A DNA stretch of 64,000 bases, taken from assembly GCA_024875585.1 (NCBI GenBank), contig GCA_024875585.1_4107.1. One strand, 5' to 3'. The stretch is from a phage. The notes beneath the pieces were generated by a model that was given only the letters and a program-made list of their open reading frames with translations, was not told the origin of the DNA and made no database searches. The translations under genes were made by a program, and so were the position numbers. Shown here piece after piece: positions 19,971 through 34,915 of this stretch. How positions within the stretch are numbered: the first letter of the stretch is position 1; the number at the start of each line of letters is the position of its first letter.

Positions 19971-19990
19971 ATATTTAATACAAAAAGAAA

Positions 19991-20011
19991 TGCCAGTATC
20001 AAGTACTGGCA
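19991..20011 (-). terminator. intergenic hairpin TGCCAGTA-UCAAG-TACTGGCA + T-tract
   Basis: follows stop of 20019..21167. Confidence 0.5.
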
Positions 20012-20018
20012 TATTAAT

Positions 20019-21167
20019 TCATTGTATAAATGACATATCTACTTCTGTATAATTAAGAACGTTCTGTCCAGAAATACCACCCATTACTACTATTGCAAGG
20101 CCACAATAATATAATTTTCCAGTATCCGTAAGTATAAGTGATCCAGATGGACTGCGTACCAAATCACACGAACTATTAAAAGAAGTATAAGAAGGAGTAT
20201 AGGAGTACTGATTATTATTATTACCAACACCTAATTGCCCAAACCCATTCGATCCAGAAGCATATAGAACTTCATCTGCTTTGACAATATGTGATGCCAT
20301 GTTACCAACACAAGTATATAGAGTATAAACTCCTGAACTCAATAATGTCGGAGTTTTATATTGTATATCTGTAGATGTAGAAGTACCACCTGTACCAAAT
20401 TCGTTCCCATATTGTGCACCGAACTGTTTACCACAAGCGTACAAATTATTATCCGATTTGATAAAAAATGTACTCTGATAACTTACATTAAAATCTATAA
20501 CATCCGAAGAAATCATCGTCACCCCAGTAATAGAAGTTTGATTACCCGTGCCCAACTGGTAGTAATAGTTAAAACCACAACCCCATAAAGTATTATCTTC
20601 TCGCAAATAAATGTTACCAACTGCCTTTTTAACCGAAGTTATAGTATCTACTCTTTTGAATGTGTTAAAAGAATTAATGTTTGTACCATCACCAAATGAT
20701 GATATGTTCGATATATTGTTAACTCCACAACAATACAATGTACCATCTTTTGTTATCAAATTCACCTTCATATCATAAAAACTACTCATGTATTTTATAT
20801 CAGAAACATTAACACCACTTGATGTTATCCACGTAGTACAGTCCGTCCACAAAGTTTTTCTATCAGTTACACCAGTGAATGCCTTCGTGTTACCAGTGAT
20901 AAAAACTTTTCCAGTACCTTTCTCTTCATACAATTGACAATCACTACTGTTATCTTCCAATAGAACTCGTTTAACATTCTCCGCACAAAGAATAAATTTA
21001 CTCGATGCTACACCTGTACCAGTACCCCAATTCGTCGCAGAAGATGCATACAACTTATCAGTATAAGTATCATGAAGATACATAGAATCACTGGAATATA
21101 TTTTAAAACGCCCTTCTTTCTCAGGTATAATATTCCCGTACTTAACCATTCTCCCAAAAGGTAACAT
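20019..21167 (-). CDS. RCC1-like beta-propeller protein, paralogue 5 (382 aa)
   Basis: N-terminus MLPFGRMVKYGN; repeats YYQLGTGNQ, GFGQLGVGNN. Confidence 0.7.
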   Translation of the reverse strand: MLPFGRMVKYGNIIPEKEGRFKIYSSDSMYLHDTYTDKLYASSATNWGTGTGVASSKFILCAENVKRVLLEDNSSDCQLYEEKGTGKVFITGNTKAFTGVTDRKTLWTDCTTWITSSGVNVSDIKYMSSFYDMKVNLITKDGTLYCCGVNNISNISSFGDGTNINSFNTFKRVDTITSVKKAVGNIYLREDNTLWGCGFNYYYQLGTGNQTSITGVTMISSDVIDFNVSYQSTFFIKSDNNLYACGKQFGAQYGNEFGTGGTSTSTDIQYKTPTLLSSGVYTLYTCVGNMASHIVKADEVLYASGSNGFGQLGVGNNNNQYSYTPSYTSFNSSCDLVRSPSGSLILTDTGKLYYCGLAIVVMGGISGQNVLNYTEVDMSFIQ

Positions 21168-21190
21168 ATCCCCTCCTTATTCATTATATC
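21168..21190 (-). promoter_or_regulatory. conserved RBS/-10 cassette (TGATATAATG)
   Basis: same block; extended -10-like TG. Confidence 0.45.
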
Positions 21191-24847: not shown

Positions 24848-25088
24848 CGTAATCATATATAAACATTTAAGTAATCATTTATAATCATTGTGGTGATCAG
24901 TAGTGATTAGTATTGAGTACTAGAGTGTAATAGAGTACAGGAATGTGCACGTTTAATCAAGAACGTAGCAGTACTGATATGCCACTAAGTAGGCAGAGGA
25001 AGTCTGCCGTACTTTGTAGTTTCCAAGCTCCTTTTCCATTTTGCAAATTACATCAAATGTAATCAAAAGTAATCACGTAATGATTAGT
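24848..25088. repeat. cluster of at least 9 short (G)TAATCA / TGATTA(G) motifs
   Basis: motif recurs in both orientations in non-coding DNA; candidate protein-binding array. Confidence 0.4.
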
Positions 25089-25300: not shown

Positions 25301-25381
25301 CATTGATGTTTTTTGGGATATAATGAGTTTTGTAGTGATGAAGTTTGTACGATTACAGTACTGAATAATGAAAGAAAGCTA

Positions 25382-25409
25382 TTGACATTATGATTCAGTA
25401 CTGTATAAT
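25382..25409 (+). promoter_or_regulatory. sigma70-like promoter TTGACA-N16-TATAAT with no obvious ORF downstream
   Basis: consensus hexamers; may drive a non-coding transcript. Confidence 0.45.
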
Positions 25410-25789
25410 GTTCTACATAGAGAGATGAGTTGCCGCAAACAATTCATTCACTCTACCTCCTGTCGTGAGACAGTACAGAAAAGATAGTTCCTCCTATGCG
25501 TGGTACATCTTTTTATAACCTCTTTTTTAGTAATATAAACAGTACTGGTATTAACAGAATGGTATCAGTACTGACTTTAATCTAATACATTATACCACCA
25601 GCACAAGCTGGTGGATTCCCTCTAACAGTATTCAGTACTACATGATAGTCTTCATCCTCCTAGGGTAACATAGTGAGGGCTATTGTGGGAGTACTGAATA
25701 CTCCTTTCAAAAGATAGAATAATGGTATAGTACCGACGGATTTTGGGCGTAGTTACCCTGGGTGGATTTTGGACGTAGATATGTCTAGC

Positions 25790-25926
25790 CCTCCAGAAGT
25801 CTGGAAGTAAAGATGGCTATCCATCTAGACGGCTAAACGGATAGATTTCTAGATGGCTGTATGGCTAGACGTTTGGATGGCTAAACGGCTAGATGGTTAC
25901 ACGTCTGGAAGTATAGACGGCTAAAT
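25790..25926. repeat. iteron-like repeat cluster (GGCTAAAC / CTAGAYGG / TCTGGAAGT units)
   Basis: at least 5 GGCTA-containing units and 2 TCTGGAAGT units in about 140 bp. Confidence 0.5.
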
Positions 25927-26104
25927 CAAAATTTTTATTTTGTTTTTCCAATAGTTCCCCTACCGCGTGAGGATATTTTTCCCCGCAGTATCTGGAGTTA
26001 GATTTTTCTGAATCTGGAATCATTATCTAATAAACTGGGGGCAATGTCAACCGCCTGGATGAATATTTTTAAAAATAATCTAGTACTGAATTTTGGGCGT
26101 AACT

Positions 26105-26126
26105 ATGCACCCGGTGGGCTTGAGTC
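26105..26126. repeat. dispersed intergenic repeat, orientation B (GCACCCGGTGGG core)
   Basis: preceded by AATTTTGGGCG box; copies at 28244, 30397. Confidence 0.45.
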
Positions 26127-26265
26127 TTTCTCGACTTGATGAAACTATTATACAGTACTAGAAAAATAAAGCAATACCCTAAACGCAAAAAAATTTAATT
26201 AATTTGCTTGCTATCCTGGGCCGTAATATGGTACTATTAGTTCAGTACTGAGAAAGTGCTTTAAC

Positions 26266-26289
26266 CTGCTAGGGTGCGGGAGTGTATCC
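26266..26289. repeat. dispersed intergenic repeat, orientation A (GGGTGCGGGAGTGTATC)
   Basis: copies at 28188, 34916, 38327, 41334, 43624. Confidence 0.45.
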
Positions 26290-26320
26290 TTTTTAAATTA
26301 TATGAATTTTGGGCGGATCT

Positions 26321-26342
26321 CGGCACCCTGTGGGTCAGTGCC
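26321..26342. repeat. dispersed repeat variant (GCACCCTGTGGGTCAGTG)
   Basis: preceded by AATTTTGGGCG box. Confidence 0.4.
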
Positions 26343-26628
26343 TTGTGTCCGGCTTATGTAGTAATTATACGCTTTTTCAGTACTGAGTCAATAGCTAAAA
26401 ACAAAAATAATTGAAAATAATTTAACGCGTTTAAACGGCCCGTAAAGCCCTGGAGTGATTGGAATGGTACAAATGTATAGCTTAGGTGTATTAATGCGTT
26501 AGAATGCGATTGAGGCCGTTTTATGGGGTGTAGTGGTGATTTGATTGATTCAGTACTGAATAATAGTACTGAAAGATAGTTCCCCTATATAGAAAGAAAA
26601 CTATTTTAAAAGTACATGTAGAAAGTAC

Positions 26629-26656
26629 TTGCAAACTATCTCAATTGGCGTATAAT
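26629..26656 (+). promoter_or_regulatory. early promoter AAAGTACTTGCAA-N16-TATAAT
   Basis: A-rich upstream, TTGCAA -35, TATAAT -10; leader hairpin at 26670..26688. Confidence 0.6.
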
Positions 26657-26669
26657 GTTTTACATCGAG

Positions 26670-26688
26670 AGCGGGAACACTTCCCGCT
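26670..26688 (+). promoter_or_regulatory. 5' leader hairpin AGCGGGAA-CAC-TTCCCGCT
   Basis: perfect stem a few nt after predicted TSS. Confidence 0.5.
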
Positions 26689-26711
26689 GCACATAAAGAG
26701 AGATTAAAACG

Positions 26712-27074
26712 ATGGCTACTCAAATCAATAAAATTATTGCTAACCTGGTTAACTTCCGCGACGAGATGAAAGGTCTTCCGGCTGAAACGGTAAAAATTCA
26801 CATTTCAGCTTATCGGGAACTTATTGCAATGTTACCGCTTAAGCGTGAACAATACGCCGCTACCGTGATGCTTGATGCGATGATCCATAAGATGATCGCC
26901 AGTGATTTAACGATGGTTTATCAGTACATGGGCGAAAATTTCGCGGTGTCTGGTAAGCCAGTACCAGGGATGGCAACTACTGAGGAATTGCACGGTTTAA
27001 ATTTAAAACAAGATGCATGGGATAATATGCCTCGTTTCCTGGTATGGGCTGACAGTGGCAAAATTTACAAATAA
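26712..27074 (+). CDS. hypothetical early protein (120 aa)
   Basis: promoter + hairpin + SD AGAGAG upstream. Confidence 0.65.
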   Translation: MATQINKIIANLVNFRDEMKGLPAETVKIHISAYRELIAMLPLKREQYAATVMLDAMIHKMIASDLTMVYQYMGENFAVSGKPVPGMATTEELHGLNLKQDAWDNMPRFLVWADSGKIYK

Positions 27075-27088
27075 GTTTAATAAAGTAC

Positions 27089-27116
27089 TTGCATACTAAG
27101 TTAAAACAAGTATAAT
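27089..27116 (+). promoter_or_regulatory. early promoter TTGCAT-N16-TATAAT
   Basis: AAAGTACTTGCAT...TATAAT. Confidence 0.55.
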
Positions 27117-27135
27117 ACTTTCTATCAGGTGCAAC

Positions 27136-27174
27136 GGGAAGTTTTTAAACTTCCCTATAGGGGAATAGTTCCCC
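27136..27174 (+). promoter_or_regulatory. conserved double leader hairpin (GGGAAGTTT-loop-AAACTTCCC + GGGGAATAGTTCCCC)
   Basis: near-identical element also at 35486, 37580, 41762. Confidence 0.55.
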
Positions 27175-27195
27175 ACTATATAAGAGGATTAAAAA

Positions 27196-27435
27196 ATGGC
27201 TAAATCAAAAATGTTCTTAGGTCACAAAAACAAAACTCATTGGAATGTAAGCCTTTGGATTAATAACGATGAGTCATTGTACCGGTTGGCCCAGGACTTT
27301 ATTGCCGCCAACACTAATCGCAATGATGCGGCCCGTCATATGATGTTATTTTTAGAACAGACTGGACAAGATAAAACACCGGACGGATTCAAATATAGCA
27401 CTACTGCGATCCGTGCGGCGATGGTTGGAATGTAA
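27196..27435 (+). CDS. hypothetical early protein (79 aa); paralogue of 29228..29467
   Basis: shared GHKNKTHWNVSLWINNDESLYR...STTAIRAAMVGM. Confidence 0.65.
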   Translation: MAKSKMFLGHKNKTHWNVSLWINNDESLYRLAQDFIAANTNRNDAARHMMLFLEQTGQDKTPDGFKYSTTAIRAAMVGM

Positions 27436-27520
27436 TAGAATTTATTTAAAGTACTATCGCAAAAAATGATAGTACTTTATAATAGTGTTTTATTCATACA
27501 CCAACGATAAGGGCAACAGC

Positions 27521-27787
27521 ATGAATATTAAGTATTTTGCGACGCGTGAACAAGCTCGGAAGGCGGCGAAAGTGGAAGGTGCAACGTTTAAAGATATGGG
27601 CATACAATCGGAACGTGGTAAACGTTGGGCCATTGTAAAGCGTAGTACAGCCAGATCATTACAGTACTGGCTATCAGCTTTAAAAAGTCCTGATAGTGTA
27701 TCGCGTCGAGTGGTAGAAATAAAGCTCGACCGTAAGGGGAATCGTGTTACCGTGTACCGTACTAAAAAGATTGCAGTGCTTGAATAA
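27521..27787 (+). CDS. hypothetical early protein; paralogue of 39641..40036
   Basis: ATG after SD AAGGG; shared KYFATREQAR...RKGNRVTVY. Confidence 0.6.
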   Translation: MNIKYFATREQARKAAKVEGATFKDMGIQSERGKRWAIVKRSTARSLQYWLSALKSPDSVSRRVVEIKLDRKGNRVTVYRTKKIAVLE

Positions 27788-27794
27788 AAAGTAC

Positions 27795-27822
27795 TTGCAA
27801 ACTATGTTTAATGGCGTATAAT
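27795..27822 (+). promoter_or_regulatory. early promoter TTGCAA-N16-TATAAT
   Basis: same consensus as 26629..26656, with GCGGGAA hairpin after it. Confidence 0.6.
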
Positions 27823-27873
27823 GTTTTACATCGAGAGCGGGAACACTTCCCGCCTATAACCTGGAGTAATAAA

Positions 27874-28104
27874 ATGACTAATATGTATATGACTGAAGTT
27901 AAAACCGTAAAAGATACTACCACTAATAAAACTACTTACTTACAGCGGATCTGTGGTGTATGGCAACGTATCAGCAAATCAAAGTACTTTAAATTAACAT
28001 CATATGCCAATCGTTCGGATTCATTCAGTACTGAAATAAAAGGTAATAAAGTACACCAATACGGCACTTATTATTATTATAGCCTGGCCGCGATTGCAGT
28101 ATAA
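27874..28104 (+). CDS. hypothetical early protein (76 aa)
   Basis: ATG after SD GGAGTAA; track start 27811 lies inside the promoter. Confidence 0.55.
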   Translation: MTNMYMTEVKTVKDTTTNKTTYLQRICGVWQRISKSKYFKLTSYANRSDSFSTEIKGNKVHQYGTYYYYSLAAIAV

Positions 28105-28187
28105 GTAGTTTACAAATCTTTACAATTGCCGGTATTGACTTAAAATGTCAGTACTGGCATAATGTATCTATTGAAACGAACAATTTG

Positions 28188-28214
28188 GCCCACGGGGTGC
28201 GGGAGTGTATCTAT
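28188..28214. repeat. dispersed intergenic repeat, orientation A
   Basis: GGCCCACGGGGTGCGGGAGTGTATCTAT. Confidence 0.45.
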
Positions 28215-28243
28215 AGAAAAAGTAGTTTAGTACAGTTACAATT

Positions 28244-28269
28244 GTGCACCCGGTGGGTTAGCTGTTGTC
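28244..28269. repeat. dispersed intergenic repeat, orientation B
   Basis: GTGCACCCGGTGGGTTAGCTGTTGTC. Confidence 0.45.
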
Positions 28270-28352
28270 ATGGGATATATTATACCAGTACTGGATAGTG
28301 CTGTCAATACCTTTTTACTATTCAGTACTGAAAACTATTTGATAAAAAGTAC

Positions 28353-28380
28353 TTGCAAACTATGTTTAAAGGCGTATAAT
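28353..28380 (+). promoter_or_regulatory. early promoter TTGCAA-N16-TATAAT
   Basis: consensus; followed by conserved 83 nt leader element. Confidence 0.6.
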
Positions 28381-28386
28381 GTTTTA

Positions 28387-28469
28387 CATCAGGACGGGGA
28401 ATGAAATAAGTAACTTCCCGTTAAGTAGCCCAGGAGTAAGGCATACGAAAAACTCCCCTGATAAAATAG
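28387..28469 (+). ncRNA. conserved leader element / candidate small RNA (about 83 nt)
   Basis: near-identical copy at 38447..38529; sits between two promoters; no ORF. Confidence 0.25.
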
Positions 28470-28470
28470 T

Positions 28471-28498
28471 TTGACAATTGTTTTTAAAAGCGTATAAT
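28471..28498 (+). promoter_or_regulatory. early promoter TTGACA-N16-TATAAT
   Basis: consensus hexamers before 28531 gene. Confidence 0.6.
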
Positions 28499-28530
28499 AC
28501 TTACATCAACTACTGAATGAGGGTTACAAA

Positions 28531-29142
28531 ATGAAAACTATCACTACTACTACTTATGTTATGGATTTTTCTGAATTGAACGCAGAACAAAAAACGTCAG
28601 CTATCGAACTGGTTCGGGAACGTGAAAAAAACTTAAACGACGATTATTTTTCTGAAAGTGAAATTGAATACTATAAAGAAACAGTATTGCCGGAATATGG
28701 CATTAATGAAGCTGAAATACAATTCAGTGGTTTTTGGTCGCAGGGTGACGGTGCATCAATTAGTACTGACCACGTTGACGCAGTGAAGTTTTTACGTAAG
28801 GTAAGAGCATTAACTAAGTATCGCTCAATCCGTCACCTGCTGAATGAAGATGATTTGGCGATGAGTGTAAAGCGTTCTCACTCCCGCTACTCACATGAGA
28901 ACACTGTAAGCGGGTACATTGAATCGGCTTACACTGATTTAACCGCAAAACAAGAAACGTTAGTTAATGAGCTTGAGGAACTACTCACTGATACTATTCG
29001 TGAATTATCCCGCAAGTTGTACCGTGATTTAGAAAATGCATATGAGGATCAATTCACTACTGAAAACATCGTATCACTGATTGAGGGTAACGAATATCAA
29101 TTCAATGTTATTGATGGCGTAGTAGAATCAATTGCATATTAA
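28531..29142 (+). CDS. hypothetical acidic protein (203 aa)
   Basis: ORF after tandem promoters; SD GAGGG. Confidence 0.65.
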   Translation: MKTITTTTYVMDFSELNAEQKTSAIELVREREKNLNDDYFSESEIEYYKETVLPEYGINEAEIQFSGFWSQGDGASISTDHVDAVKFLRKVRALTKYRSIRHLLNEDDLAMSVKRSHSRYSHENTVSGYIESAYTDLTAKQETLVNELEELLTDTIRELSRKLYRDLENAYEDQFTTENIVSLIEGNEYQFNVIDGVVESIAY

Positions 29143-29227
29143 AAAGTACTTGCAAACTAAGTTTAAAAGCGTATAATACTTTATATCGAGGCGGGGAATG
29201 GTTCCCCGCTCAAACGAGGATTTAAAA

Positions 29228-29467
29228 ATGGCTAGTACTAAAACTTACAACGGACACAAAAACAAAACTCATTGGAATGTAAGCCTTTGGATCAATAACG
29301 ATGAATCATTGTACCGGATTGCTCAAAATTGCATCGCTCAAAGTAAAACGAAAGATATTGCAGCGGAATTTATGTACCGCAGATTAAAAGCCAACGGTAT
29401 TACTACAACGCCGGACGGATTCAAGTATAGCACTACGGCGATCCGTGCTGCAATGGTTGGAATGTAA
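29228..29467 (+). CDS. hypothetical early protein (79 aa); paralogue of 27196..27435
   Basis: ATG after SD GAGGA; track start 29198 lies in the leader hairpin. Confidence 0.6.
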   Translation: MASTKTYNGHKNKTHWNVSLWINNDESLYRIAQNCIAQSKTKDIAAEFMYRRLKANGITTTPDGFKYSTTAIRAAMVGM

Positions 29468-29524
29468 TATTCAGTACTATAACAATGGCGGGGAATAGTT
29501 CCCGCCTTTACTAAGGGTTATCTA

Positions 29525-29806
29525 ATGAGTAAAGTAATAAAGTACAATGTGTTAAGCAAATCATTGTCTATCAGTGAATGCACCGATGGTTTTTGGCTGT
29601 ACGATGAAACGCGTGGCATGAATTTAGCTATGCAGGAGAAAACTGCTGATGCGGCATATCTTAAAGCACTGGAATACTACCAGAAGCGTTTAACGGAAGT
29701 AGAAAACGATTATAATAACCTTAAAGCGAAAGTGGATAATTTCGTTGGTCAATTCGTTGACGATGACGAGGGGCACTACTGCGACCGTTGTGGATCTTAC
29801 AGTTAA
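29525..29806 (+). CDS. hypothetical protein (93 aa)
   Basis: leader hairpin GGCGGGGAATAGTTCCCGCC upstream; SD AAGGG. Confidence 0.55.
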   Translation: MSKVIKYNVLSKSLSISECTDGFWLYDETRGMNLAMQEKTADAAYLKALEYYQKRLTEVENDYNNLKAKVDNFVGQFVDDDEGHYCDRCGSYS

Positions 29807-29823
29807 GTACTAAGGATTATATA

Positions 29824-30027
29824 ATGAGTGATTTAATTGAACGTATCAAAGAGCTTGAAGAAAAAGAATTGCAGTTGATCGGTTTACAGAATAAAATCTA
29901 TCATGATTTGGGGAGTTTTATCAATGCGTGGGATAATGGCGATCCTGATGCGTTACCTGCTAACCGCCAGGCAATGATCAATGATGTGCGTGGTGTCTTT
30001 GAGTATGTTTTAAAGCAATTAAATTAA
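29824..30027 (+). CDS. hypothetical protein (67 aa)
   Basis: ATG after SD AAGGATT; track start overlaps previous gene. Confidence 0.5.
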   Translation: MSDLIERIKELEEKELQLIGLQNKIYHDLGSFINAWDNGDPDALPANRQAMINDVRGVFEYVLKQLN

Positions 30028-30036
30028 AAAAAGTAC

Positions 30037-30064
30037 TTGCAATTAGTTTTTAGTACTGTATAAT
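30037..30064 (+). promoter_or_regulatory. early promoter TTGCAA-N16-TATAAT
   Basis: consensus; leader hairpin GGGAGAAATGGTTCTCCC at 30078..30095. Confidence 0.6.
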
Positions 30065-30114
30065 GTTTTACATAGAGGGGAGAAATGGTTCTCCCTGGTA
30101 ATGAGGAAAATACA

Positions 30115-30336
30115 ATGGCTAATATCACTACTCTTTCTCAACTGGAAGCACTGGTTAAATCTATGCGGGAACATGCCGACAAAATCGGCGTAAAAGATCC
30201 AGCCGTTTGCTTCTGCGACGAAATGAATGATGATACATTGGTAATAGCAGAAGTTCAGGACGTTTCTAACTATTCATCGCGTTACACTGGCGGCGTAGCA
30301 AATAAAGGTGACTTCTGTTTATACCTTACAAAATAA
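30115..30336 (+). CDS. hypothetical early protein (73 aa)
   Basis: ATG after SD GAGGAAAA; track start is the ATG inside the hairpin loop. Confidence 0.6.
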   Translation: MANITTLSQLEALVKSMREHADKIGVKDPAVCFCDEMNDDTLVIAEVQDVSNYSSRYTGGVANKGDFCLYLTK

Positions 30337-30342
30337 CAACGA

Positions 30343-30369
30343 GGGGATCAATTGATCCCCTTTCTTTTT
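30343..30369 (+). terminator. rho-independent terminator (GGGGATCAATTGATCCCC + T-tract)
   Basis: palindromic stem followed by TTTCTTTTT. Confidence 0.65.
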
Positions 30370-30396
30370 CAGTACTGAATAATTTAATAGACGGAT

Positions 30397-30429
30397 CTAT
30401 GCACCCGGTGGGTTAGTGACTGTTTCGTC
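30397..30429. repeat. dispersed intergenic repeat, orientation B
   Basis: CTATGCACCCGGTGGGTTAGTGACTGTTTCGTC. Confidence 0.45.
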
Positions 30430-30502
30430 TTTATGTAGTAATTATGCCAGTACTGGATGCACTTGTCAACAACTATTTTTCAAATACTTTTTATTAAAAT
30501 AC

Positions 30503-30530
30503 TTGCAATTAGTTTTTAAACGCGTATAAT
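30503..30530 (+). promoter_or_regulatory. early promoter TTGCAA-N16-TATAAT
   Basis: consensus; hairpin GGGGGAGCGGTTCCCC follows. Confidence 0.6.
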
Positions 30531-30577
30531 GTTTTGCATAGGGGGAGCGGTTCCCCTGGTAACTAAGGAATAAGAAA

Positions 30578-30814
30578 ATGGTCGAACAAATCAAATCAAC
30601 GTCTTCGAATGTAACGGGAACGGTAGCACACTTTACTTGTGATGAATCGCGGGGCGTTCCCTATTGTGCTGTACATGTAAACACTGAGGGTAACTACTGG
30701 TTTACGGTTTACGGATCATATTCATTTGGACGGCCAGGGCATCAAAAAATTCTGGATAAAGTACAACCAACGGGTAAAAATATCACTGCCGAAATGTTTT
30801 ATAAAAACAAATAA
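30578..30814 (+). CDS. hypothetical early protein (78 aa)
   Basis: SD AAGGAATAAG. Confidence 0.6.
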   Translation: MVEQIKSTSSNVTGTVAHFTCDESRGVPYCAVHVNTEGNYWFTVYGSYSFGRPGHQKILDKVQPTGKNITAEMFYKNK

Positions 30815-30908
30815 AAGTACTTGATAATAGTTTGACTATGTATTACAGTACTGTATAATAGATACATAAGGGGCGAATAGTTTGCCCCTAGTACAAAGGG
30901 GAAACATT

Positions 30909-31139
30909 ATGCCAGGCCGAATAGTTTTACTTAACGCTGGAAGTACTACACAACTCCTTAACGCCGTGTATTATGATATTGAAACGAGCGTCAATCTTAT
31001 CAGTACTGTAGTATTGTTGGACACTGGAAAGGTCGCAAATGATAAAGCGATTGCAGGTATACTAACGGATCTTAAACCAGGTTGCAGTACTCCAATAACT
31101 TTAAATGATAAAGTGTTTAATATTTTACTAACTGATTAA
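30909..31139 (+). CDS. hypothetical early protein (76 aa)
   Basis: ATG after SD AAGGGG; promoter TTGACT...TATAAT and hairpin GGGGCGAATAGTTTGCCCC upstream. Confidence 0.55.
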   Translation: MPGRIVLLNAGSTTQLLNAVYYDIETSVNLISTVVLLDTGKVANDKAIAGILTDLKPGCSTPITLNDKVFNILLTD

Positions 31140-31145
31140 GTACAT

Positions 31146-31174
31146 AGCCCACCTGGTGGGCTTTTTTGTTTTTG
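31146..31174 (+). terminator. rho-independent terminator (AGCCCACC-UGG-UGGGCU + T-tract)
   Basis: hairpin + TTTTTTGTTTTT. Confidence 0.65.
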
Positions 31175-31211
31175 TAGTACTGCATACTTTGAAAATAGTT
31201 TTAAAAAAGTA

Positions 31212-31239
31212 GTTGACATTACCGCAAAAAGGCGTAGAA
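31212..31239 (+). promoter_or_regulatory. early promoter TTGACA-N16-TAGAAT
   Basis: followed by a diverged copy of the conserved leader element. Confidence 0.5.
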
Positions 31240-31363
31240 TGTATTACATCAAGACGGGGAGCACTAAGTAGACCGCCAGTAAGTCGAACGAAAAACTGGA
31301 CACGTCGAGAAAACTTTGATACACTAACTAACATAAACTAAACTTTAATTGAGGATTTATAAA

Positions 31364-31846
31364 ATGGCTAATGTAAAATCATTTCTGAAAGCACTGATTT
31401 CTAACGATACTGCTATTGCTGCTGAATTGCTGGCGGATCTGGATAGCGATACCATGAAAGCGGTACGCAACAATTTTAACATTGCGTACAGTGAAGCTAA
31501 AGAACTGCAAGCCAAAAAGATAGCAGAACTGGAAGAACAGAAAAAAGCCCGTGAAGAAGAATTACAAGCAACTATTGAAAGTATTCAGGCGGCGGTTGCA
31601 GGGTTGGATCTGGATGTAGTTGTAGAAATGGCACATAAAGCCCTGGCAGTTAAGTACGGTGAAGATAAGCCAGTATCTAAACCTAAAAAATGGATTCAGG
31701 AACGCGTAACGGTTGTTCTTGATAATGGCGAGGAACATTTAATTCCCGTGCGTGGTAACTGCATTGCGGTAGTTCTGGATGCTATCAAAGAAAGCGGATT
31801 GACTCGCGAGGAATGGATCGAAGCTCACCGCAAGATTGAAGCATAA
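31364..31846 (+). CDS. hypothetical protein (160 aa), predicted helical
   Basis: ATG after SD GAGGATT. Confidence 0.65.
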   Translation: MANVKSFLKALISNDTAIAAELLADLDSDTMKAVRNNFNIAYSEAKELQAKKIAELEEQKKAREEELQATIESIQAAVAGLDLDVVVEMAHKALAVKYGEDKPVSKPKKWIQERVTVVLDNGEEHLIPVRGNCIAVVLDAIKESGLTREEWIEAHRKIEA

Positions 31847-31867
31847 CAATTAAAGTACTGAATCAAT

Positions 31868-31895
31868 AGCCCACTTTTTATAGTGGGCTTTTTTG
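31868..31895 (+). terminator. rho-independent terminator (GCCCAC-loop-GTGGGC + T6)
   Basis: hairpin + TTTTTTGTG. Confidence 0.6.
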
Positions 31896-32122
31896 TGCTT
31901 ATCGTTTACCATGCCACCAGCACCGCCTAGAATCGATTCTAACGCATTAAACTGATTATCTGATGAATCGCCCTAGCTGGTGGCGTTAATGCCGTTAGAA
32001 CGCGATTGAGGATGTTTAAAGTATTTTTGCAAAAAGTAATAAAAAGTACTTGCACGATTAAGAGATTAGAGTATAATTAATTACATCAAGACAAGACACC
32101 TTAACTAACTGAGGATATAAAG

Positions 32123-32275
32123 ATGAATACTTATGAACTGGATTGTTTTACTTTACAAGTAATGTCAGTATGCAGTAAAAAAGATTGGTCATCAAAGGAA
32201 TTTAAAGCAGTTATTGCGTGTGCAAAACACGGCAAGACTATCAATGAAACGGCATCAATCATTGATAAACTTTAA
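32123..32275 (+). CDS. small hypothetical protein (50 aa)
   Basis: promoter TTGCAC...TATAAT upstream; SD GAGGATA; below track cutoff. Confidence 0.4.
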   Translation: MNTYELDCFTLQVMSVCSKKDWSSKEFKAVIACAKHGKTINETASIIDKL

Positions 32276-32345
32276 AAAATAGTTTGACAATAGTTTTAAG
32301 TACTGCGATAATACATACATCAACTACTGAATAGGAATAAAAACA

Positions 32346-32573
32346 ATGGCTATCGTAATCACTCGCGTAACTGGTACTACTGGCACTGCTTCAACTGTTG
32401 CTGTAATTACTAATAAGAAAGGTGCAGAATTACATTTTGCAATGGATAAATGGGCCGTTAATGAGTTTGGTCAGTGGGCAAGTGTAGAATACATTGAAAC
32501 CTATCAAGTGCCATCGATTAGCTTAACTGATTTAGGTGTAGAACGTATCCTTTGTCTGGATGAATTAAATTAA
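32346..32573 (+). CDS. hypothetical early protein (75 aa)
   Basis: promoter TTGACA...CGATAAT upstream; SD AGGAATAA. Confidence 0.6.
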   Translation: MAIVITRVTGTTGTASTVAVITNKKGAELHFAMDKWAVNEFGQWASVEYIETYQVPSISLTDLGVERILCLDELN

Positions 32574-32660
32574 AAAAGTACTTGCAAAGTAAATCGAATA
32601 AAGTATAATACATTACATCAAGGGGAGAAAATGGTTCTCCCCACTAAGAGGAAACTAAAA

Positions 32661-32804
32661 ATGAAAACTTGTCAATGTGGTAAAAAATCTATTACTGGTT
32701 TGAAACGGGGCGTTTCACTTTGCCAGTACCATTATAATTTACAAGTATGGGGTAAAGAATGGGCCGACCAGGTTGAAGCATCAAAGAAAGCAAAAAGTAA
32801 GTAA
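32661..32804 (+). CDS. small Cys-rich protein (47 aa), possible zinc ribbon
   Basis: CQCG...CQYH; promoter + hairpin + SD AAGAGGAAA; below track cutoff. Confidence 0.4.
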   Translation: MKTCQCGKKSITGLKRGVSLCQYHYNLQVWGKEWADQVEASKKAKSK

Positions 32805-32823
32805 AATTATTATCACAGTACTA

Positions 32824-32852
32824 TTGACATAGATTGATAGTACTGGCATAAT
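32824..32852 (+). promoter_or_regulatory. repeated promoter cassette TTGACA-N17-CATAAT (copy 1)
   Basis: about 80 bp block incl. RBS and ATGGCT repeated at 33119, 35781, 42948. Confidence 0.55.
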
Positions 32853-32885
32853 AGATTTTATCAAGACAACTAAGAGGAAATTAAA

Positions 32886-33098
32886 ATGGCTATCATTATT
32901 AAAAACAAAGTTAATAAGACTATCGTTAAACTGGCAGAAGTGAAAGAAGGTTATAAAGTATCTTGGGAGGGTTTTTATCGGACGTTTACTGATATTGACG
33001 ATGCAATCAATTACTACACTGATACGGTTAAAAACTTTGTTCGTGCTGATGTGGTTATGGCAGTGGCAACATATAAAGCATCAAAAGAAAGTAAGTAA
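32886..33098 (+). CDS. hypothetical early protein (70 aa)
   Basis: MAII... start shared with 35841 gene; SD AAGAGGAAA. Confidence 0.6.
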   Translation: MAIIIKNKVNKTIVKLAEVKEGYKVSWEGFYRTFTDIDDAINYYTDTVKNFVRADVVMAVATYKASKESK

Positions 33099-33118
33099 AA
33101 AATATTATCACAGTACTA

Positions 33119-33147
33119 TTGACATAGATTGATAGTACTGGCATAAT
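33119..33147 (+). promoter_or_regulatory. repeated promoter cassette (copy 2)
   Basis: identical to copy 1. Confidence 0.55.
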
Positions 33148-33180
33148 AGATTTTATCAAGACAACTAAGAGGAAATTAAA

Positions 33181-33525
33181 ATGGCTAACATCAATACTAT
33201 AGCAGCACAAAATATCAACCTGTCTTCTGTTGAAGTTGTACACATTGCCGCCCGGCGTTGGTTCCAGGCGTCTTATGGTAATACGTATTTCTCTTTAACG
33301 GTAGATGTTGAAATCAATGGCGAATTTATTGAAGTAGTAAACGTGCCGTTCCAATATGGCTACGGGGATCATTTTGACACTGTAGCAATGGAAGAATTAA
33401 GCAAGGTTATTAATATGGAAGGTAAAGAGTTTTTACGCGGTTCTTATCTTTCCCGTTTTTGCCGTGATAATAATATTACTGTTTATAGTTCTGTTAGTGA
33501 TGTTAAACGCAAAAAAGATCTTTAA
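33181..33525 (+). CDS. hypothetical early protein (114 aa); paralogue of 39222..39545
   Basis: shared FQYGYGDHF / FTYGYGTQG and C-terminal VKRKKD. Confidence 0.65.
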   Translation: MANINTIAAQNINLSSVEVVHIAARRWFQASYGNTYFSLTVDVEINGEFIEVVNVPFQYGYGDHFDTVAMEELSKVINMEGKEFLRGSYLSRFCRDNNITVYSSVSDVKRKKDL

Positions 33526-33538
33526 TTAGCTTTACTTT

Positions 33539-33567
33539 ATGCAGATACTTTGATACAGTGTCTGCAT
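33539..33567. promoter_or_regulatory. inverted repeat ATGCAGA-N15-TCTGCAT
   Basis: 7 bp perfect inverted repeat after 33181 gene; operator or weak terminator. Confidence 0.3.
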
Positions 33568-33605
33568 AGGGGAAAGAAATTAAATCAACTTAAGAGGATA
33601 GTAAA

Positions 33606-33875
33606 ATGAAAAATATCAGTACTTTAATCGATGCAGGTACACATGTTCGTCGGTCTATGGTTGCAACCAGTTCTACAAAACAAGTAGCGAGCGGTTATCT
33701 TGTATTTGTGCACGATGGTAAACTCCTGGAACGTTCAATCAATTTTGATGTTAAAAACAATTGCCGTTTTATTATCTTTAAGCGTGAGCAATATAAAATT
33801 GATTTACCAGCGAAGCCCATTAGTGGGGCGTACAACGTTCAATCATTGTTTGAGCGTCAACCATACACCTATTAA
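33606..33875 (+). CDS. hypothetical protein (89 aa)
   Basis: SD AAGAGGATAG. Confidence 0.6.
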   Translation: MKNISTLIDAGTHVRRSMVATSSTKQVASGYLVFVHDGKLLERSINFDVKNNCRFIIFKREQYKIDLPAKPISGAYNVQSLFERQPYTY

Positions 33876-33926
33876 TCAAAACAACGTTAGCGGTCGATTT
33901 AGGCCGCTTATACTGGGGATTATATA

Positions 33927-34199
33927 ATGAATACTAATCAAGTACTGAATGAGATTGAAAGCATCATTAAACCGATGAAGCGTACTGATGCTATGTTAAC
34001 ACCGGAAGAATGCCGCCTTTATGAGCGTTACAGCGTCGAACAAGTCCAGGCAATGGCTATGGCTACCCCAGCCGTTAAACAGCCTGAGAACGCGTTACAG
34101 GACGTTACAGGGGATTATATCATCAATCCAGTACTAGGGAAGATGGAAGCAATCACCGAAGAACAAAAAGACTACTTAAGCCAGTACTTAAAAGGTTAA
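33927..34199 (+). CDS. hypothetical protein (90 aa)
   Basis: ORF, ATG start. Confidence 0.55.
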   Translation: MNTNQVLNEIESIIKPMKRTDAMLTPEECRLYERYSVEQVQAMAMATPAVKQPENALQDVTGDYIINPVLGKMEAITEEQKDYLSQYLKG

Positions 34200-34204
34200 T
34201 TAAT

Positions 34205-34414
34205 ATGCTTACTGTACAGGATAAGATCGACATCTTAAAGGTTAATATGTATGTGATTGATGCAGATCCTGAAAAAGTATTTGCATACGATGATTCTAAT
34301 CGTAGTCCTTTTTATTGTAGTCATGTAGTTGGATATGTGCCGTTATCGTATGTTATCGAAAGAGTGGTTGATTCAGCATACAAACATTTTTTAGAAAATA
34401 GTACTTGCAATTAG
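34205..34414 (+). CDS. hypothetical protein (69 aa)
   Basis: TAATTAATATG junction. Confidence 0.55.
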   Translation: MLTVQDKIDILKVNMYVIDADPEKVFAYDDSNRSPFYCSHVVGYVPLSYVIERVVDSAYKHFLENSTCN

Positions 34415-34482
34415 TTTTTAGTACTGTATAATGTTTTACATGAAGGGGGGAAATGATTCTCCCCAATAACAGGAGAAACAAA

Positions 34483-34635
34483 ATGAAACAATACAACGCT
34501 CGGTTTGATGTTACTATCGGCAACGGCAAAGGTCAATTCTCTTTCAGTACTCGTAAGAGTTATACAGAAAACTTCTTGCGTAATTGTGCACTGACCGCCG
34601 CACAAATTAAACATTATTTTCAGGCTAAAAAATGA
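34483..34635 (+). CDS. small hypothetical protein (50 aa)
   Basis: ATG after SD AGGAGAAA; track start 34453 lies in the leader hairpin. Confidence 0.45.
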   Translation: MKQYNARFDVTIGNGKGQFSFSTRKSYTENFLRNCALTAAQIKHYFQAKK

Positions 34636-34721
34636 AATCATTAGCTTATTATAGCTCGGCCCTGGTCGGTGCATTGATCGCGGCATTGTTAGTAGCTTAT
34701 CTATTCTTTATGGTGATTTAA
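34632..34721 (+). CDS. tiny hydrophobic peptide (29 aa)
   Basis: ATGA-coupled; single TM-like segment; speculative. Confidence 0.3.
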   Translation: MKSLAYYSSALVGALIAALLVAYLFFMVI

Positions 34722-34859
34722 ATGAATCCTAACGGTATAATTTACAGTACTCCTAAAACGAAAGCAGATAAAGCGGAAGCACGTAAAGCGAAAGTAAAGG
34801 AGTACATCAAGCAAGGTATGACACGAAAGGCGGCGATTCTAAAAGCTAAAAATAAATGA
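34722..34859 (+). CDS. small basic protein (45 aa)
   Basis: TAAATG-coupled; Lys-rich; speculative. Confidence 0.3.
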   Translation: MNPNGIIYSTPKTKADKAEARKAKVKEYIKQGMTRKAAILKAKNK

Positions 34860-34866
34860 AAAAAAG

Positions 34867-34889
34867 TGGTTGACTTCGGTCAGCCATTT
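34867..34889 (+). terminator. terminator hairpin (GGTTGAC-UUCG-GTCAGCC) with weak T-tract
   Basis: start of a 130 bp repeated intergenic module. Confidence 0.5.
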
Positions 34890-34915
34890 TGCTATTATAT
34901 ATTCATTGAGAGATA

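What the first reader, a model, noticed from the sequence alone, without database searches (positions are those of the whole stretch)
28387..28469. Conserved 83 nt leader element sandwiched between tandem promoters (two near-identical copies plus one diverged)
ACATCAGGACGGGGAA(T/C)GAAATAAGTAA...GTTAAGTAGCCCAGGAGTAAGGCATACGAAAAACTCCCCTGATAAAATAG occurs at 28387..28469 and 38447..38529, each time directly after one consensus promoter and directly before a second one that drives the downstream gene. A diverged version follows the promoter at 31212. There is no ORF. The element may be a short non-coding RNA, or an occlusion/roadblock element regulating the second promoter.
Basis: seen in the sequence. 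Interest (0 to 1): 0.5.

Follow-up and report, generated by a model that had tools for sequence, protein, structure and literature searches.

The report
Early-promoter pseudoknot RNA shared with T7
The repeated 83-nt stretch is a real, ORF-less RNA element with a conserved pseudoknot fold, and the same motif lies unannotated between promoters A1 and A2 of phage T7 and in hundreds of other enterobacterial phages; its function is unknown.

Summary
There are two about 95% identical copies (28387-28469, 38447-38529), each between two sigma-70 promoters, and a diverged third copy after the promoter at 31213. No reading frame is conserved.

The element is not specific to this Asteriusvirus-type jumbo phage. 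Its 37-40 nt core, UAA-GUAGNC-N-[S2]-(N)UAA-GN'C-N-UAY-GAAAAA-[S2'], recurs in:
- Vequintavirinae, Justusliebigvirus and 7t3-type jumbo phages;
- 486 T7-like records. In T7 itself it is nt 549-589, in the A1 leader, abutting the A2 -35 hexamer.

Covariation supports an H-type pseudoknot (S1 and S2) preceded by a hairpin (P2). The 3' tail pairs with the transcript's 5' end (P1) in the window type, or with the P2 loop (P4) in the T7 type. G-U pairs make the fold specific to the sense strand, so it is RNA. Rfam, E. coli genomes and the searchable literature hold nothing like it.

Some homologues have no second promoter, so roadblock or occlusion of that promoter is not the core function. My best guess, at low confidence, is an early non-coding RNA gene in a promoter-per-gene array whose product binds a conserved host factor. 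The main rival is a put-like action in cis on host RNA polymerase.

The parts
28353..28380 (+). Upstream sigma-70 promoter of copy 1 (TTGCAA-16-TATAAT). The inferred transcription start is A28386 or A28388.
   Evidence: It belongs to the 23-copy promoter family D1. The start site is inferred from its spacing to the -10, not measured.
28388..28393 (+). P1 5' strand (AUCAGG), which pairs with 28457-28462.
   Evidence: MFE fold and RNAalifold on 11 homologues. P1 is invariant within this subtype. Different complementary P1 pairs occur in other subtypes.
28394..28421 (+). P2 hairpin (ACGGGGA / UUCCCGU with a 14-nt loop).
   Evidence: In homologues a hairpin with a different stem sequence ends 0-1 nt before UAAGUAG. 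P2 covaries in the T7-type alignment.
28422..28456 (+). Pseudoknot core of copy 1. UAA; S1 5' strand GUAGCC 28425-28430; S2 5' strand GGAG 28433-28436; UAA; S1 3' strand GGC-A-UAC 28440-28446; L3 GAAAAA 28447-28452; S2 3' strand CUCC 28453-28456.
   Evidence: Covariance-model hit of 55 bits. S1 and S2 pairing and covariation. The S1 core was predicted independently by RNAalifold.
28457..28462 (+). P1 3' strand (CCUGAU), directly abutting S2.
28471..28498 (+). Downstream consensus promoter (TTGACA-16-TATAAT) driving the gene at 28531-29142 (phrog_5162, function unknown).
38413..38440 (+). Upstream promoter of copy 2 (TTGCAT...TATAAT), preceded by a terminator-like hairpin at 38270-38299.
   Evidence: (D1).
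38448..38522 (+). Copy 2 of the RNA element. P1 38448-38453 / 38517-38522; P2 38454-38481; pseudoknot core 38482-38516.
   Evidence: 55 bits. Coordinates are those of copy 1 plus 10060 (D19).
38531..38559 (+). Downstream promoter of copy 2 (TTGACA-17-TAAAAT, with TG), driving the gene at 38592-38867 (phrog_14947, function unknown).
31213..31240 (+). Promoter of the diverged copy (TTGACA-16-TAGAAT), preceded by a terminator at 31146-31162.
31248..31320 (+). Diverged copy 3, which has no P2 hairpin. Outer P1 AUCAA 31248-31252 / UUGAU 31316-31320; inner P1 GACG 31253-31256 / CGUC 31303-31306. Pseudoknot core 31265-31299: S1 GUAGAC 31268-31273 with GUC-G-AAC 31283-31289; S2 CCAG 31276-31279 with CUGG 31296-31299. 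No second promoter; it continues into the gene at 31364-31846.
   Evidence: Covariance-model hit of 48.6 bits. Its core is 91% identical over 35 nt to phiA1122 nt 553-587. The P1 pairings were read from the sequence and are inferred.

Best explanation
SHOWN. The element is a member of a widespread, previously unannotated family of structured phage RNAs.
- It is transcribed by host sigma-70 RNA polymerase within the first 100 nt or so of very early transcripts.
- It folds into a hairpin (P2) followed directly by a compact H-type pseudoknot: S1 = GUAGNC / GN'C-N-UAY; S2 = 4-5 bp; L1 = 1-2 nt; L2 = (N)UAA; L3 is A-rich, GAAAAA.
- The 3' tail is locked either to the transcript's 5' end (P1; the window copies and other myovirus versions) or to the P2 loop (P4; T7-like versions).

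INFERRED (mechanism).
- I read it as a small non-coding RNA gene sitting in an array where every early gene has its own promoter and most have no terminator. The 'promoter sandwich' is then simply array organisation: promoter + RNA in place of promoter + small ORF.
- The RNA would be made in large amounts in the first seconds of infection. It could be released from the longer transcript by host RNases: RNase III at R0.3 in T7 (established knowledge), or cleavage in the AU-rich promoter DNA downstream in the window (speculative).
- It would act as a folded RNA that binds a conserved enterobacterial core factor, not a phage protein, because the carrier lineages appear to share no early proteins. 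That last point rests on general knowledge of these phages; I did not compare their early proteins.
- The target is not identified. The transcription/translation/RNA-decay machinery is more likely than an accessory defence system, because the motif is near-universal in enterobacterial T7-like phages.

CONFIDENCE. About 0.85 that it is a functional structured RNA family. About 0.35 that it works as an RNA product on a host factor rather than in cis on its own polymerase or mRNA.
For: Structure.
- Alignment A1 (33 distinct cores from at least 5 phage groups): 94.7% of cells paired against 81% in shuffles (0 of 500 shuffles reach it) and 17-40% when the 3' partners are slid. The middle S1 pair is AU 20 / CG 5 / UA 5 / GC 1. 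S2 pairs switch CG/GC/UA/AU.
- Alignment A3 (23 T7-type sequences): all five measures beat all 500 shuffles. 11 pairs carry double-sided changes against 4.8 expected. All five core loop-tail (P4) pairs covary and are at least 96% paired.
- G-U pairs (for example 13 at A1 pair 13-39 and 8 at A3 pair 31-57) fit only the sense strand.

Distribution.
- 45 records of Asteriusvirus, Vequintavirinae and Justusliebigvirus phages carry the full 88-nt element.
- 486 records match the T7 version, one place each: Escherichia, Klebsiella, Salmonella, Yersinia, Enterobacter, Citrobacter, Serratia, Pantoea, Cronobacter and others.
- In two jumbo phages it lies inside the annotated terminal repeats. In T7-like records that start at the genome's left end it lies about 500-900 nt in.
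- It is absent from 5,426 E. coli genomes. The scan of one genome per bacterial species gave only chance hits plus one T7-like contig.

Not protein-coding.

Array context.
- 23 near-identical promoter + 5' hairpin cassettes lie in the window.
- Genes downstream of the three copies are unrelated.
- Only 3 of the 23 or more early promoters here, and only A1 of A1-A3 in T7, carry the motif. That fits a dosage product better than a modification every polymerase needs.

Circumstantial (PMC11863960).
- The 'A1' guide targets T7 nt about 524-543, the P2 5' arm and loop, so dCas9 stops A1 transcripts before the pseudoknot.
- That guide did not reduce downstream reporter expression, yet it gave the strongest delay of lysis and about 3-fold smaller plaques.
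- The cloned A1-A3 fragment was highly toxic to E. coli.
Against: - No terminator or defined 3' end follows any copy. A discrete RNA species is not demonstrated.
- In the metagenomic loci L068 and L085 the motif sits in the 5' UTR of the first gene, about 20 nt before a boxA antitermination signal. That looks more like a cis-acting leader element.
- No binding partner can be named.
- The CRISPRi result has other explanations: dCas9 sitting on the leading DNA end, or A1 simply being the strongest promoter.
- The fragment's toxicity may be due to promoter strength alone.
- Sampling bias. Most metagenomic and IMG/VR instances were found with a pattern that fixed UAAGUAG, AAGNC and GAAA, and I kept only hits with a complementary S2. 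Invariance of those letters, and the percentage paired in S2, are therefore partly by construction. The S1 middle pair, P2 and P4 were not used as filters.
Confidence: 0.35

Rival explanations
1. Cis-acting modifier of the transcribing host RNA polymerase, working like HK022 put. The nascent pseudoknot would fold as it leaves the exit channel, stay bound to the elongation complex, and make it pause-, Rho- or terminator-resistant or faster. That would speed early expression and, in T7-like phages, transcription-driven genome entry.
For: - The motif always lies within about 100 nt of an early host-polymerase start site, as putL does (put properties from PMC9378689).
- It needs no phage protein, because it is shared by unrelated phages.
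- In L068 and L085 it lies about 20 nt upstream of boxA, and all inspected T7-like leaders carry boxA downstream.
- Its hosts are restricted to Enterobacterales and relatives.
- Blocking A1 transcripts before the motif hurt infection without lowering reporter output.
[quoted passage not shown] I could verify only its title and could not read it.
Against: - Only the upstream promoter of each tandem pair, only A1 of T7's three promoters, and only 3 of the 23 or more early promoters in the window would yield modified polymerases. A strong unmodified promoter immediately downstream makes little sense for this model.
- Almost every gene in the window array has its own promoter, so read-through is not needed.
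- The window has no boxA.
- From my own knowledge, not tested here: A1-initiated transcripts terminate efficiently at the T7 early terminator in vitro.
- There is no sequence or fold similarity to put, which has two stem-loops and no pseudoknot reported.
Confidence: 0.22
2. A 5'-terminal stabiliser or insulator of the mRNA. A compact knotted fold that buries the 5' end (P1) would protect transcripts from the upstream promoter against RppH- and RNase E-dependent decay, giving a long-lived mRNA isoform alongside the shorter one from the downstream promoter.
For: - Every other early promoter in the window is followed at +1 by a simple GC hairpin in the same position (families D2-D4), and the element starts with the same ACAUC...GGGG sequence.
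- P1 pairs nucleotides +1/+3 to +6/+8 of the inferred transcript.
Against: - Generic stabilisers do not need about 20 invariant unpaired nucleotides (UAA, UAA, GAAAAA) kept across unrelated phage families.
- In T7 the motif starts about 39 nt into the transcript, behind another 5' hairpin.
- The T7 leader is cut away from the 0.3 mRNA by RNase III (established knowledge), so it cannot stabilise that mRNA.
Confidence: 0.13
3. A DNA-level element of the downstream promoter: an UP element or factor-binding site, or a roadblock/occlusion device.
For: - In most lineages a strong promoter follows.
- In T7 the A-tract GAAAAA lies at about -47 to -42 of A2, where a proximal UP subsite would be, and the RNA tail UUGAC is the A2 -35 hexamer itself.
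Against: - Compensatory changes in four helices, with G-U pairs valid on one strand only.
- Spacing to the next -35 varies from 2 to about 45 nt.
- Homologues exist with no downstream promoter: window copy 3, L068 and L085.
- In LIMElight, K1F, L055, L253 and L255 the tail is not a -35 hexamer, yet it still complements the P2 loop.
Confidence: 0.06
4. A small-ligand aptamer (riboswitch-like sensor) or an antitoxin/decoy RNA aimed at an accessory defence nuclease, for example a mimic of a type III toxin-antitoxin antitoxin.
For: - In size (37-40 nt), H-type pseudoknot fold, A-rich L3 and high conservation of unpaired bases it resembles small pseudoknot aptamers and ToxI-like antitoxin pseudoknots. 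This is a resemblance from memory, not a test.
- It is made first in infection and moves horizontally between phage families at about 90% identity.
Against: - There is no expression platform: no terminator or ribosome-binding site overlaps the fold.
- No Rfam family, including riboswitches and ToxI if present, matches at E up to 10.
- It occurs as a single unit, not as tandem repeats.
- Near-universal retention in enterobacterial T7-like phages (486 records) argues for a core target rather than a sporadic plasmid-borne defence system.
Confidence: 0.08

Closest known systems
The T7 A1-A2 inter-promoter sequence (T7 nt about 536-593; core 549-589)
   Same: It is the same motif. The covariance model scores 61 bits (E 3e-16) on the T7 reference. 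P2, S1, S2 and L3 are the same, and the element again sits behind the first early promoter and abuts the next one.
   Different: - In T7 the 3' tail pairs with the P2 loop (P4, GUCAA/UUGAC) instead of with the 5' end (P1).
- The motif begins about 39 nt into the A1 transcript.
- There is one copy per genome.
- The T7 RefSeq record annotates only the promoters there. A 2025 paper calls the region an 'otherwise non-coding internalisation signal' (PMC11863960).
HK022 putL/putR antiterminator RNA
   Same: It is a promoter-proximal phage RNA of about 70 nt, transcribed by host polymerase, that works without phage proteins. putL lies just downstream of PL (PMC9378689).
   Different: - put is two stem-loops with a triplex in stem I, not a pseudoknot. 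There is no sequence similarity.
- By my reading, each HK022 early promoter has its own put site. Here only a minority of early promoters carry the motif.
- No binding to polymerase is shown here.
PeSL cassettes of T4-type phages (promoter-early + stem-loop mobile regulatory cassettes)
   Same: The window's array of near-identical early promoters, each followed by a stem-loop between small ORFs, resembles PeSLs (PMC2839356, PMC4122927; titles and abstracts only). So does the exchange of the promoter-element-promoter unit between unrelated phages at about 90% identity.
   Different: PeSLs are promoters (and terminators) that flank ORFs. The element here is an ORF-less cassette whose transcribed part has its own deeply conserved tertiary fold and occurs outside such arrays, as in T7.
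Small H-type pseudoknot RNAs (preQ1-I or guanidine-III riboswitch aptamers; ToxI antitoxin)
   Same: The size, two short helices, short L1 and A-rich L3 are similar. This is a comparison from memory.
   Different: There is no Rfam match, no expression platform, no tandem repetition, and the element is found in phages only.

Membership tests
Any described RNA family (Rfam 15) | Covariance-model match at or above the family's gathering score | tested here: not met
   There were 0 hits in the whole window at gathering thresholds. At E up to 10 on 28300-28560 only two chance-level hits appeared: Methylobacterium-1 at 15.3 bits against a gathering score of 40, and RT-6 at 12.5 against 46.7.
H-type pseudoknot (structural class) | Two helices in the order S1a-S2a-S1b-S2b, both supported by compensatory changes | tested here: met
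   The middle S1 pair shows all four Watson-Crick types. S2 has 4 pairs with double-sided changes. Slid-partner controls give only 17-40% paired. RNAalifold independently picks the S1 core.
H-type pseudoknot (structural class) | Loop lengths compatible with the helices they must span | tested here: met
   L1 is 1-2 nt across a 4-5 bp S2. L3 is 6 nt (GAAAAA) across a 6-bp S1. L2 is 3-4 nt, longer than in classical pseudoknots (alignments). The actual geometry was not modelled.
HK022 put-type antiterminator RNA | Two-stem-loop fold and sequence similarity to putL/putR | tested here: not met
   The fold found here is a hairpin plus pseudoknots. The put paper describes two stem-loops and does not mention a pseudoknot. 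No put sequence was aligned directly.
HK022 put-type antiterminator RNA | Binds the RNA polymerase beta' zinc-binding domain and suppresses pausing and termination in cis | not testable with these tools
   This needs in vitro transcription, or genetics with rpoC zinc-binding-domain mutants.
HK022 put-type antiterminator RNA | Located in the nascent transcript downstream of each early promoter | tested here: inconclusive
   The motif is promoter-proximal in every inspected case. But it follows only 3 of the 23 or more early promoters in the window, and only A1 of A1-A3 in T7.
Discrete small RNA gene (promoter + terminator) | Own promoter | tested here: met
   (consensus scan only; the start site was not mapped).
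Discrete small RNA gene (promoter + terminator) | Defined 3' end (intrinsic terminator or mapped processing site) | tested here: not met
   There is no terminator-like site between the element and the next gene in any of the three copies. Processing cannot be tested here.
PeSL-type mobile promoter/stem-loop cassette | Repeated early promoter + stem-loop between small ORFs in a plastic region | tested here: met
   Met for the surrounding array (families D1-D5). The element itself replaces the ORF and is more than a stem-loop.
Riboswitch | Aptamer coupled to an expression platform (terminator or ribosome-binding-site sequestration) | tested here: not met
   No terminator or ribosome-binding site overlaps the fold. 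The next start codon is 68-70 nt beyond the fold, behind a promoter in copies 1 and 2.
Type III antitoxin (ToxI-like) or pseudo-ToxI | Tandem repeats of a unit of about 34-45 nt next to, or mimicking, a toxIN-type locus | tested here: not met
   There is a single unit per site, the copies are 3-10 kb apart, and there is no Rfam hit. Binding to a toxin was not tested.
CRISPR-repeat mimic (RNA anti-CRISPR) | Sequence similarity to a host CRISPR repeat | tested here: not met
   There was no blastn match of the 88-nt element in 5,426 complete E. coli genomes at E up to 1.

The most novel reading that the evidence does not exclude
The pseudoknot would be a new class of host-takeover RNA: the first molecule made by T7-like, rV5-like, phi92-like and Rak2-like coliphages. 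It would either reprogram the host transcription elongation complex without any protein, as a second and structurally unrelated put-type system, or titrate a core host factor. That would mean the T7 A1 leader, used for decades as a neutral in vitro transcription template, carries an active RNA device whose 3' helix is encoded by the A2 -35 hexamer.
Probability: 0.3. Interest if true: 0.9.

Novelty: new variant of a known kind. Interest (0 to 1): 0.72.

Why it matters
- T7's left end is one of the most intensively used pieces of DNA in molecular biology. Even so, the 60 nt between A1 and A2 are treated as spacer in an 'otherwise non-coding internalisation signal'.
- This work finds a four-helix, doubly pseudoknotted RNA there, backed by compensatory changes. 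It is kept in hundreds of enterobacterial podoviruses and exchanged with at least four myovirus and jumbo-phage lineages. That points to a protein-independent function in the first seconds of infection.
- If the target is RNA polymerase, this would be only the second factor-free antiterminator-type RNA known, and it could alter how T7A1-template biochemistry is read.
- If the target is another host factor, this would be a widespread RNA-based takeover or anti-defence device.
- Either way it is directly testable in T7 with a handful of point mutants.
- It also suggests adding an RNA family to Rfam and a feature to phage annotation, where spurious 'hypothetical protein' ORFs are now called across the element in several records.

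Tried and rejected
- Rfam at gathering and permissive thresholds: nothing.
- tRNA/tmRNA scan of the window: none.
- Protein-coding reading: the only ORF starts in the -10 box and its frame is not conserved.
- Host origin or CRISPR-repeat mimicry: no match in E. coli genomes. The scan of one genome per bacterial species gave only chance hits plus one T7-like contig in a MAG.
- boxA next to the window copies: absent. There were 2 loose matches elsewhere, no more than chance.
- Extra degenerate copies at 24984-25032 and 40546-40597 (7 bits): I read them and rejected them as chance; the second lies inside an ORF.
- A second copy between T7 A2 and A3: none.
- A link between the element and a particular downstream gene: the three downstream proteins are unrelated families of unknown function with no Pfam domain.
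- A single-helix test for P1 in all subtypes: not significant per sequence against shuffles. It did, however, reveal the loop-tail pairing P4.
- Considered from memory and dropped because the sequence features are not conserved across the family: CsrA sites (GGA is absent from the T7-type S2), a sigma-dependent pause element (no -10-like A2/T6), hammerhead or pistol ribozymes (no Rfam hit), and similarity to the tmRNA resume region (not conserved).
- Literature: ten full-text searches found no description of this motif. The exact T7 sequence appears only in construct tables. The 1989 Telesnitsky & Chamberlin paper could not be read.
Full report
1. OBSERVATION

- Their 43-nt core is identical and is never seen in shuffles.
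- By my own reading the full 83 nt differ at four positions, all in the first hairpin.
- The repeat is really 169 nt long (28316-28484 and 38376-38544, 88% identical), so the upstream promoter and the -35 of the downstream promoter are part of the duplicated unit.
- The promoter scans confirm TTGCAA-16-TATAAT (28353-28380) and TTGACA-16-TATAAT (28471-28498) around copy 1, TTGACA-17-TAAAAT (38531-38559) after copy 2, and TTGACA-16-TAGAAT (31213-31240) before the diverged copy.
- No terminator follows any copy.
- A 31-codon ORF does cross copy 1. Its ATG is inside the -10 hexamer, and the frame is broken in homologues by hairpin-loop indels.

2. WHAT THE WINDOW IS

The window is an Asteriusvirus-type (PBECO4/121Q/ph0011-like) E. 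coli jumbo phage, 94-99% identical to those genomes. From 25 to 44 kb it carries an array of small + strand ORFs. Each sits behind a near-identical sigma-70 promoter followed at +1 by a GC hairpin and a ribosome-binding site (23 copies). This organisation resembles the PeSL cassettes of T4-type phages (PMC2839356, PMC4122927).

3. HOMOLOGUES

The full promoter-element-promoter unit occurs at about 90% identity in unrelated myoviruses: Vequintavirinae (A73, W70, A7_1) and Justusliebigvirus (EmilieFrey/Bas61, muut, outra).

The diverged copy gave the key lead. Its core is 91% identical over 35 nt to Yersinia phage phiA1122 nt 553-587, and it also matches phage 13a and the jumbo phages 7t3, SE_PL and fENko-Kae01.

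Further evidence on distribution:
- Pattern scans of IMG/VR and of metagenome contigs returned dozens of T7-like contigs of 38-45 kb with the motif a few hundred nt from an end.
- On the T7 reference, the covariance model built from 33 distinct cores scores 61 bits at nt 549-589, between A1 (+1 = 498) and A2 (+1 = 626). The record annotates only the promoters there.
- blastn with the 63-nt T7 version finds 486 phage records, one place each, across Studiervirinae, Slopekvirinae (Drulisvirus), Melnykvirinae and Limelightvirus, plus an Erwinia jumbo phage.
- Nothing matches in 5,426 E. coli genomes. The scan of one genome per bacterial species gave only chance hits and one T7-like contig.
- In vB_Ec-M-J and fENko-Kae01 the element lies inside the annotated direct terminal repeats. 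That is the leading end of the genome, as in T7.

4. STRUCTURE

The shared core is 5'-UAA-GUAGNC-N(1-2)-[S2 5' arm]-(N)UAA-GN'C-N-UAY-GAAAAA-[S2 3' arm].

On alignment A1 (33 distinct sequences) I tested the pseudoknot S1 (GUAGNC with GN'C-N-UAY) plus S2 (4-5 bp).
- 94.7% of cells are paired, against 81% in shuffles (0 of 500 reach it) and 17-40% when the 3' partners are slid.
- The middle S1 pair is A-U 20, C-G 5, U-A 5, G-C 1, with one mismatch.
- S2 pairs switch between C-G, G-C, U-A and A-U.

A hairpin (P2) ends 0-1 nt before UAAGUAG in most instances, with at least nine different stem sequences.

A script written to look for a closing helix instead found that, in T7-type versions, the P2 loop is complementary to the 5-6 nt that start one base after S2. 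The pair covaries:
- GUCAA/UUGAC (T7, T3 and others)
- GUCAAG/CUUGAC (Cronobacter phage EspYZU05)
- GAUUAG/CUAAUC (LIMElight)
- GUCGGU/ACCGAC (L055)
- GUGAA/UUCAC (L253)
- GCUAA/UUAGC (L255)
- UCAUC/GAUGA (K1F, PE3-1)
.

On alignment A3 (23 sequences) the four-helix model P2 + P4 + S1 + S2 beats all 500 shuffles on all five measures. That includes the two conservative ones: 11 pairs with double-sided changes against 4.8 expected, and 23 extra pair types against 15.5.

In the window's type the same 3' tail pairs instead with the first nucleotides of the transcript.
- P1 is AUCAGG/CCUGAU in the window type.
- Other subtypes use different P1 pairs: AUCAGGAC/GUUCUGGU in L069, CAACGAA/UUCGUUG in L068, AUCGAA/UUCGGU in L085, CGGC/GCCG in 7t3, GCGGC/GUCGC in L248, GACGG/CCGUC in UPEC06, and GACG/CGUC plus AUCAA/UUGAU in window copy 3.
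- These P1 pairs were read. They are not tested statistically, and one search shows that single short helices of this kind are not significant one at a time.

Frequent G-U pairs make the fold valid only on the sense strand. It is therefore an RNA structure, not a DNA palindrome or an antisense RNA.

Caveat. Many instances were collected with a pattern that fixed UAAGUAG, AAGNC and GAAA, and I kept only hits with a complementary S2. The invariance of those letters and S2's percentage paired are therefore partly by construction. The S1 middle pair, P2 and P4 were never used as filters, and the BLAST-derived homologues were not filtered by structure.

5. WHAT IT IS NOT

- It matches no Rfam family.
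- It is not a tRNA or tmRNA.
- It is not coding.
- It is not host-derived.
- It is not tied to a gene family: the three downstream proteins are unrelated and of unknown function.
- It is not dependent on a second promoter. Window copy 3, L068 and L085 have none, and the spacing to the next -35 varies from 2 to about 45 nt.
- In LIMElight-, K1F-, L055-, L253- and L255-type phages the tail is not a -35 hexamer but still complements the P2 loop. The coincidence in T7 of the RNA tail UUGAC with the A2 -35 is therefore a case of dual use, not the reason for conservation.

6. MECHANISM (INFERRED)

Three facts constrain it.
(a) The RNA is among the first made, by host polymerase, from the leading end of the genome.
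(b) It is shared by phage lineages that, from general knowledge, have no early proteins in common (I did not compare them). Any partner should therefore be a conserved host component.
(c) Only a minority of early promoters carry it: 3 of the 23 or more here, and A1 but not A2 or A3 in T7.

Fact (c), the ORF-less cassette layout, and horizontal exchange of the whole cassette fit best with a small RNA gene in a promoter-per-gene array. Its product would act through dosage on a host factor. Its 3' end would come from processing: RNase III at R0.3 in T7 (established knowledge), or possibly RNase E in the AU-rich promoter DNA that follows it here (speculation). I give this 0.35.

The main rival is a put-like action in cis on the transcribing polymerase.
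- For: the promoter-proximal position, and the arrangement TSS-pseudoknot-boxA-gene in L068 and L085.
- Against: fact (c), the lack of any need for read-through in this array, and the absence of boxA in the window. I give it 0.22.

A 5' stabiliser role (0.13), a DNA-level promoter element (0.06) and an aptamer or defence decoy (0.08) are less likely, for the reasons given under the rivals.

One published experiment bears on this (PMC11863960).
- Its guide 'A1' (GACCCCGGTGTCGATTGGGA) places dCas9 on T7 nt about 524-543, the 5' arm and loop of P2. A1 transcripts are therefore stopped before the pseudoknot, while A2 and A3 stay free.
- Reporter output was unchanged, yet this guide gave the strongest delay of lysis and about 3-fold smaller plaques.
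- The cloned A1-A3 fragment was highly toxic to E. coli.
This is compatible with an A1-leader RNA function, but other explanations exist.

7. NOVELTY

Within what I could search (Rfam 15, ten full-text searches, and the record annotations) the motif is undescribed. The T7 sequence appears only in construct tables. Its closest functional analogue is HK022 put (PMC9378689), and its closest contextual analogue is the PeSL cassette. It is a member of neither. I rate it a new variant of a known kind: a promoter-proximal structured phage leader RNA with an unrelated fold and a far wider distribution than put.

Noticed in passing
window 25375-44182: There is an array of at least 23 near-identical sigma-70 promoters (AAAAAGTACTTGCA...TATAATGTTTTACAT). 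Each is followed at +1 by a GC hairpin, a ribosome-binding site and a small + strand ORF. The layout resembles the PeSL mobile regulatory cassettes of T4-type phages.
   Followed up: partly
window 1334-1407, 5846-5919, 9242-9315, 10526-10599; also 38270-38299: These are composite terminator/promoter cassettes. A hairpin (GGGTTGAC-TTTA-GTCAGCCC) plus a T-run contains a TTGACT -35 hexamer inside its stem, with TATAAT about 18 nt downstream, then a ribosome-binding site and ATG.
   Followed up: no
window 28307..28279 (minus strand): A perfect consensus promoter (TTGACA-17-TATAAT with an extended -10 TG) points leftward, away from copy 1 and antisense to the upstream genes.
   Followed up: no
window 34860-35004, 38269-38413, 41276-41420: A 145-nt repeat family (65-86% identical) includes a terminator-like hairpin. 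The middle copy lies directly upstream of element copy 2. A related 'GGAGTGTATCTAT' stretch also precedes copy 1 (28200-28215).
   Followed up: no
window 60295-62375; 46057-49634; 16020-21168: Further repeat families occur. One has five copies of about 144 nt spaced about 450 nt apart (60.3-62.4 kb). One has eight 50-nt repeats ending in ACAAACTATCAA, apparently inside ORFs (46-49.6 kb). One is a set of repeats at 16-21 kb that look paralogous.
   Followed up: no
L264 (T7 NC_001604) 210-214 = T7 nt 589-593: The -35 hexamer of T7 promoter A2 (TTGACA) supplies the 3' strand (UUGAC) of RNA helix P4 in the A1 leader. One DNA segment therefore serves both as a promoter element and as part of an RNA tertiary fold.
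   Followed up: yes
L068 about 5430-5450, L085 about 4160-4180; L010 795-806; L264 434-446: T7-like leaders carry a boxA antitermination sequence ((C)GCTCTTTAA(C/A)AA) downstream of the pseudoknot. In single-promoter relatives it lies only about 20 nt after the motif. The jumbo-phage window has none.
   Followed up: partly
window 31325-31364; L011 720-760: An epsilon-like translational enhancer (AAACTTTAA, next to GAGGA) lies upstream of the gene that follows the diverged copy and upstream of its 7t3 counterpart. It resembles the T7 gene 10 leader (from memory).
   Followed up: no
Public records OR699181-3, OR699188, OR699282, PQ330092, PV611058, PV654397, MW250786, PQ824399, PP882707: Several deposited genomes annotate 'hypothetical protein' CDSs across the element, on either strand. 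These calls are probably spurious.
   Followed up: no
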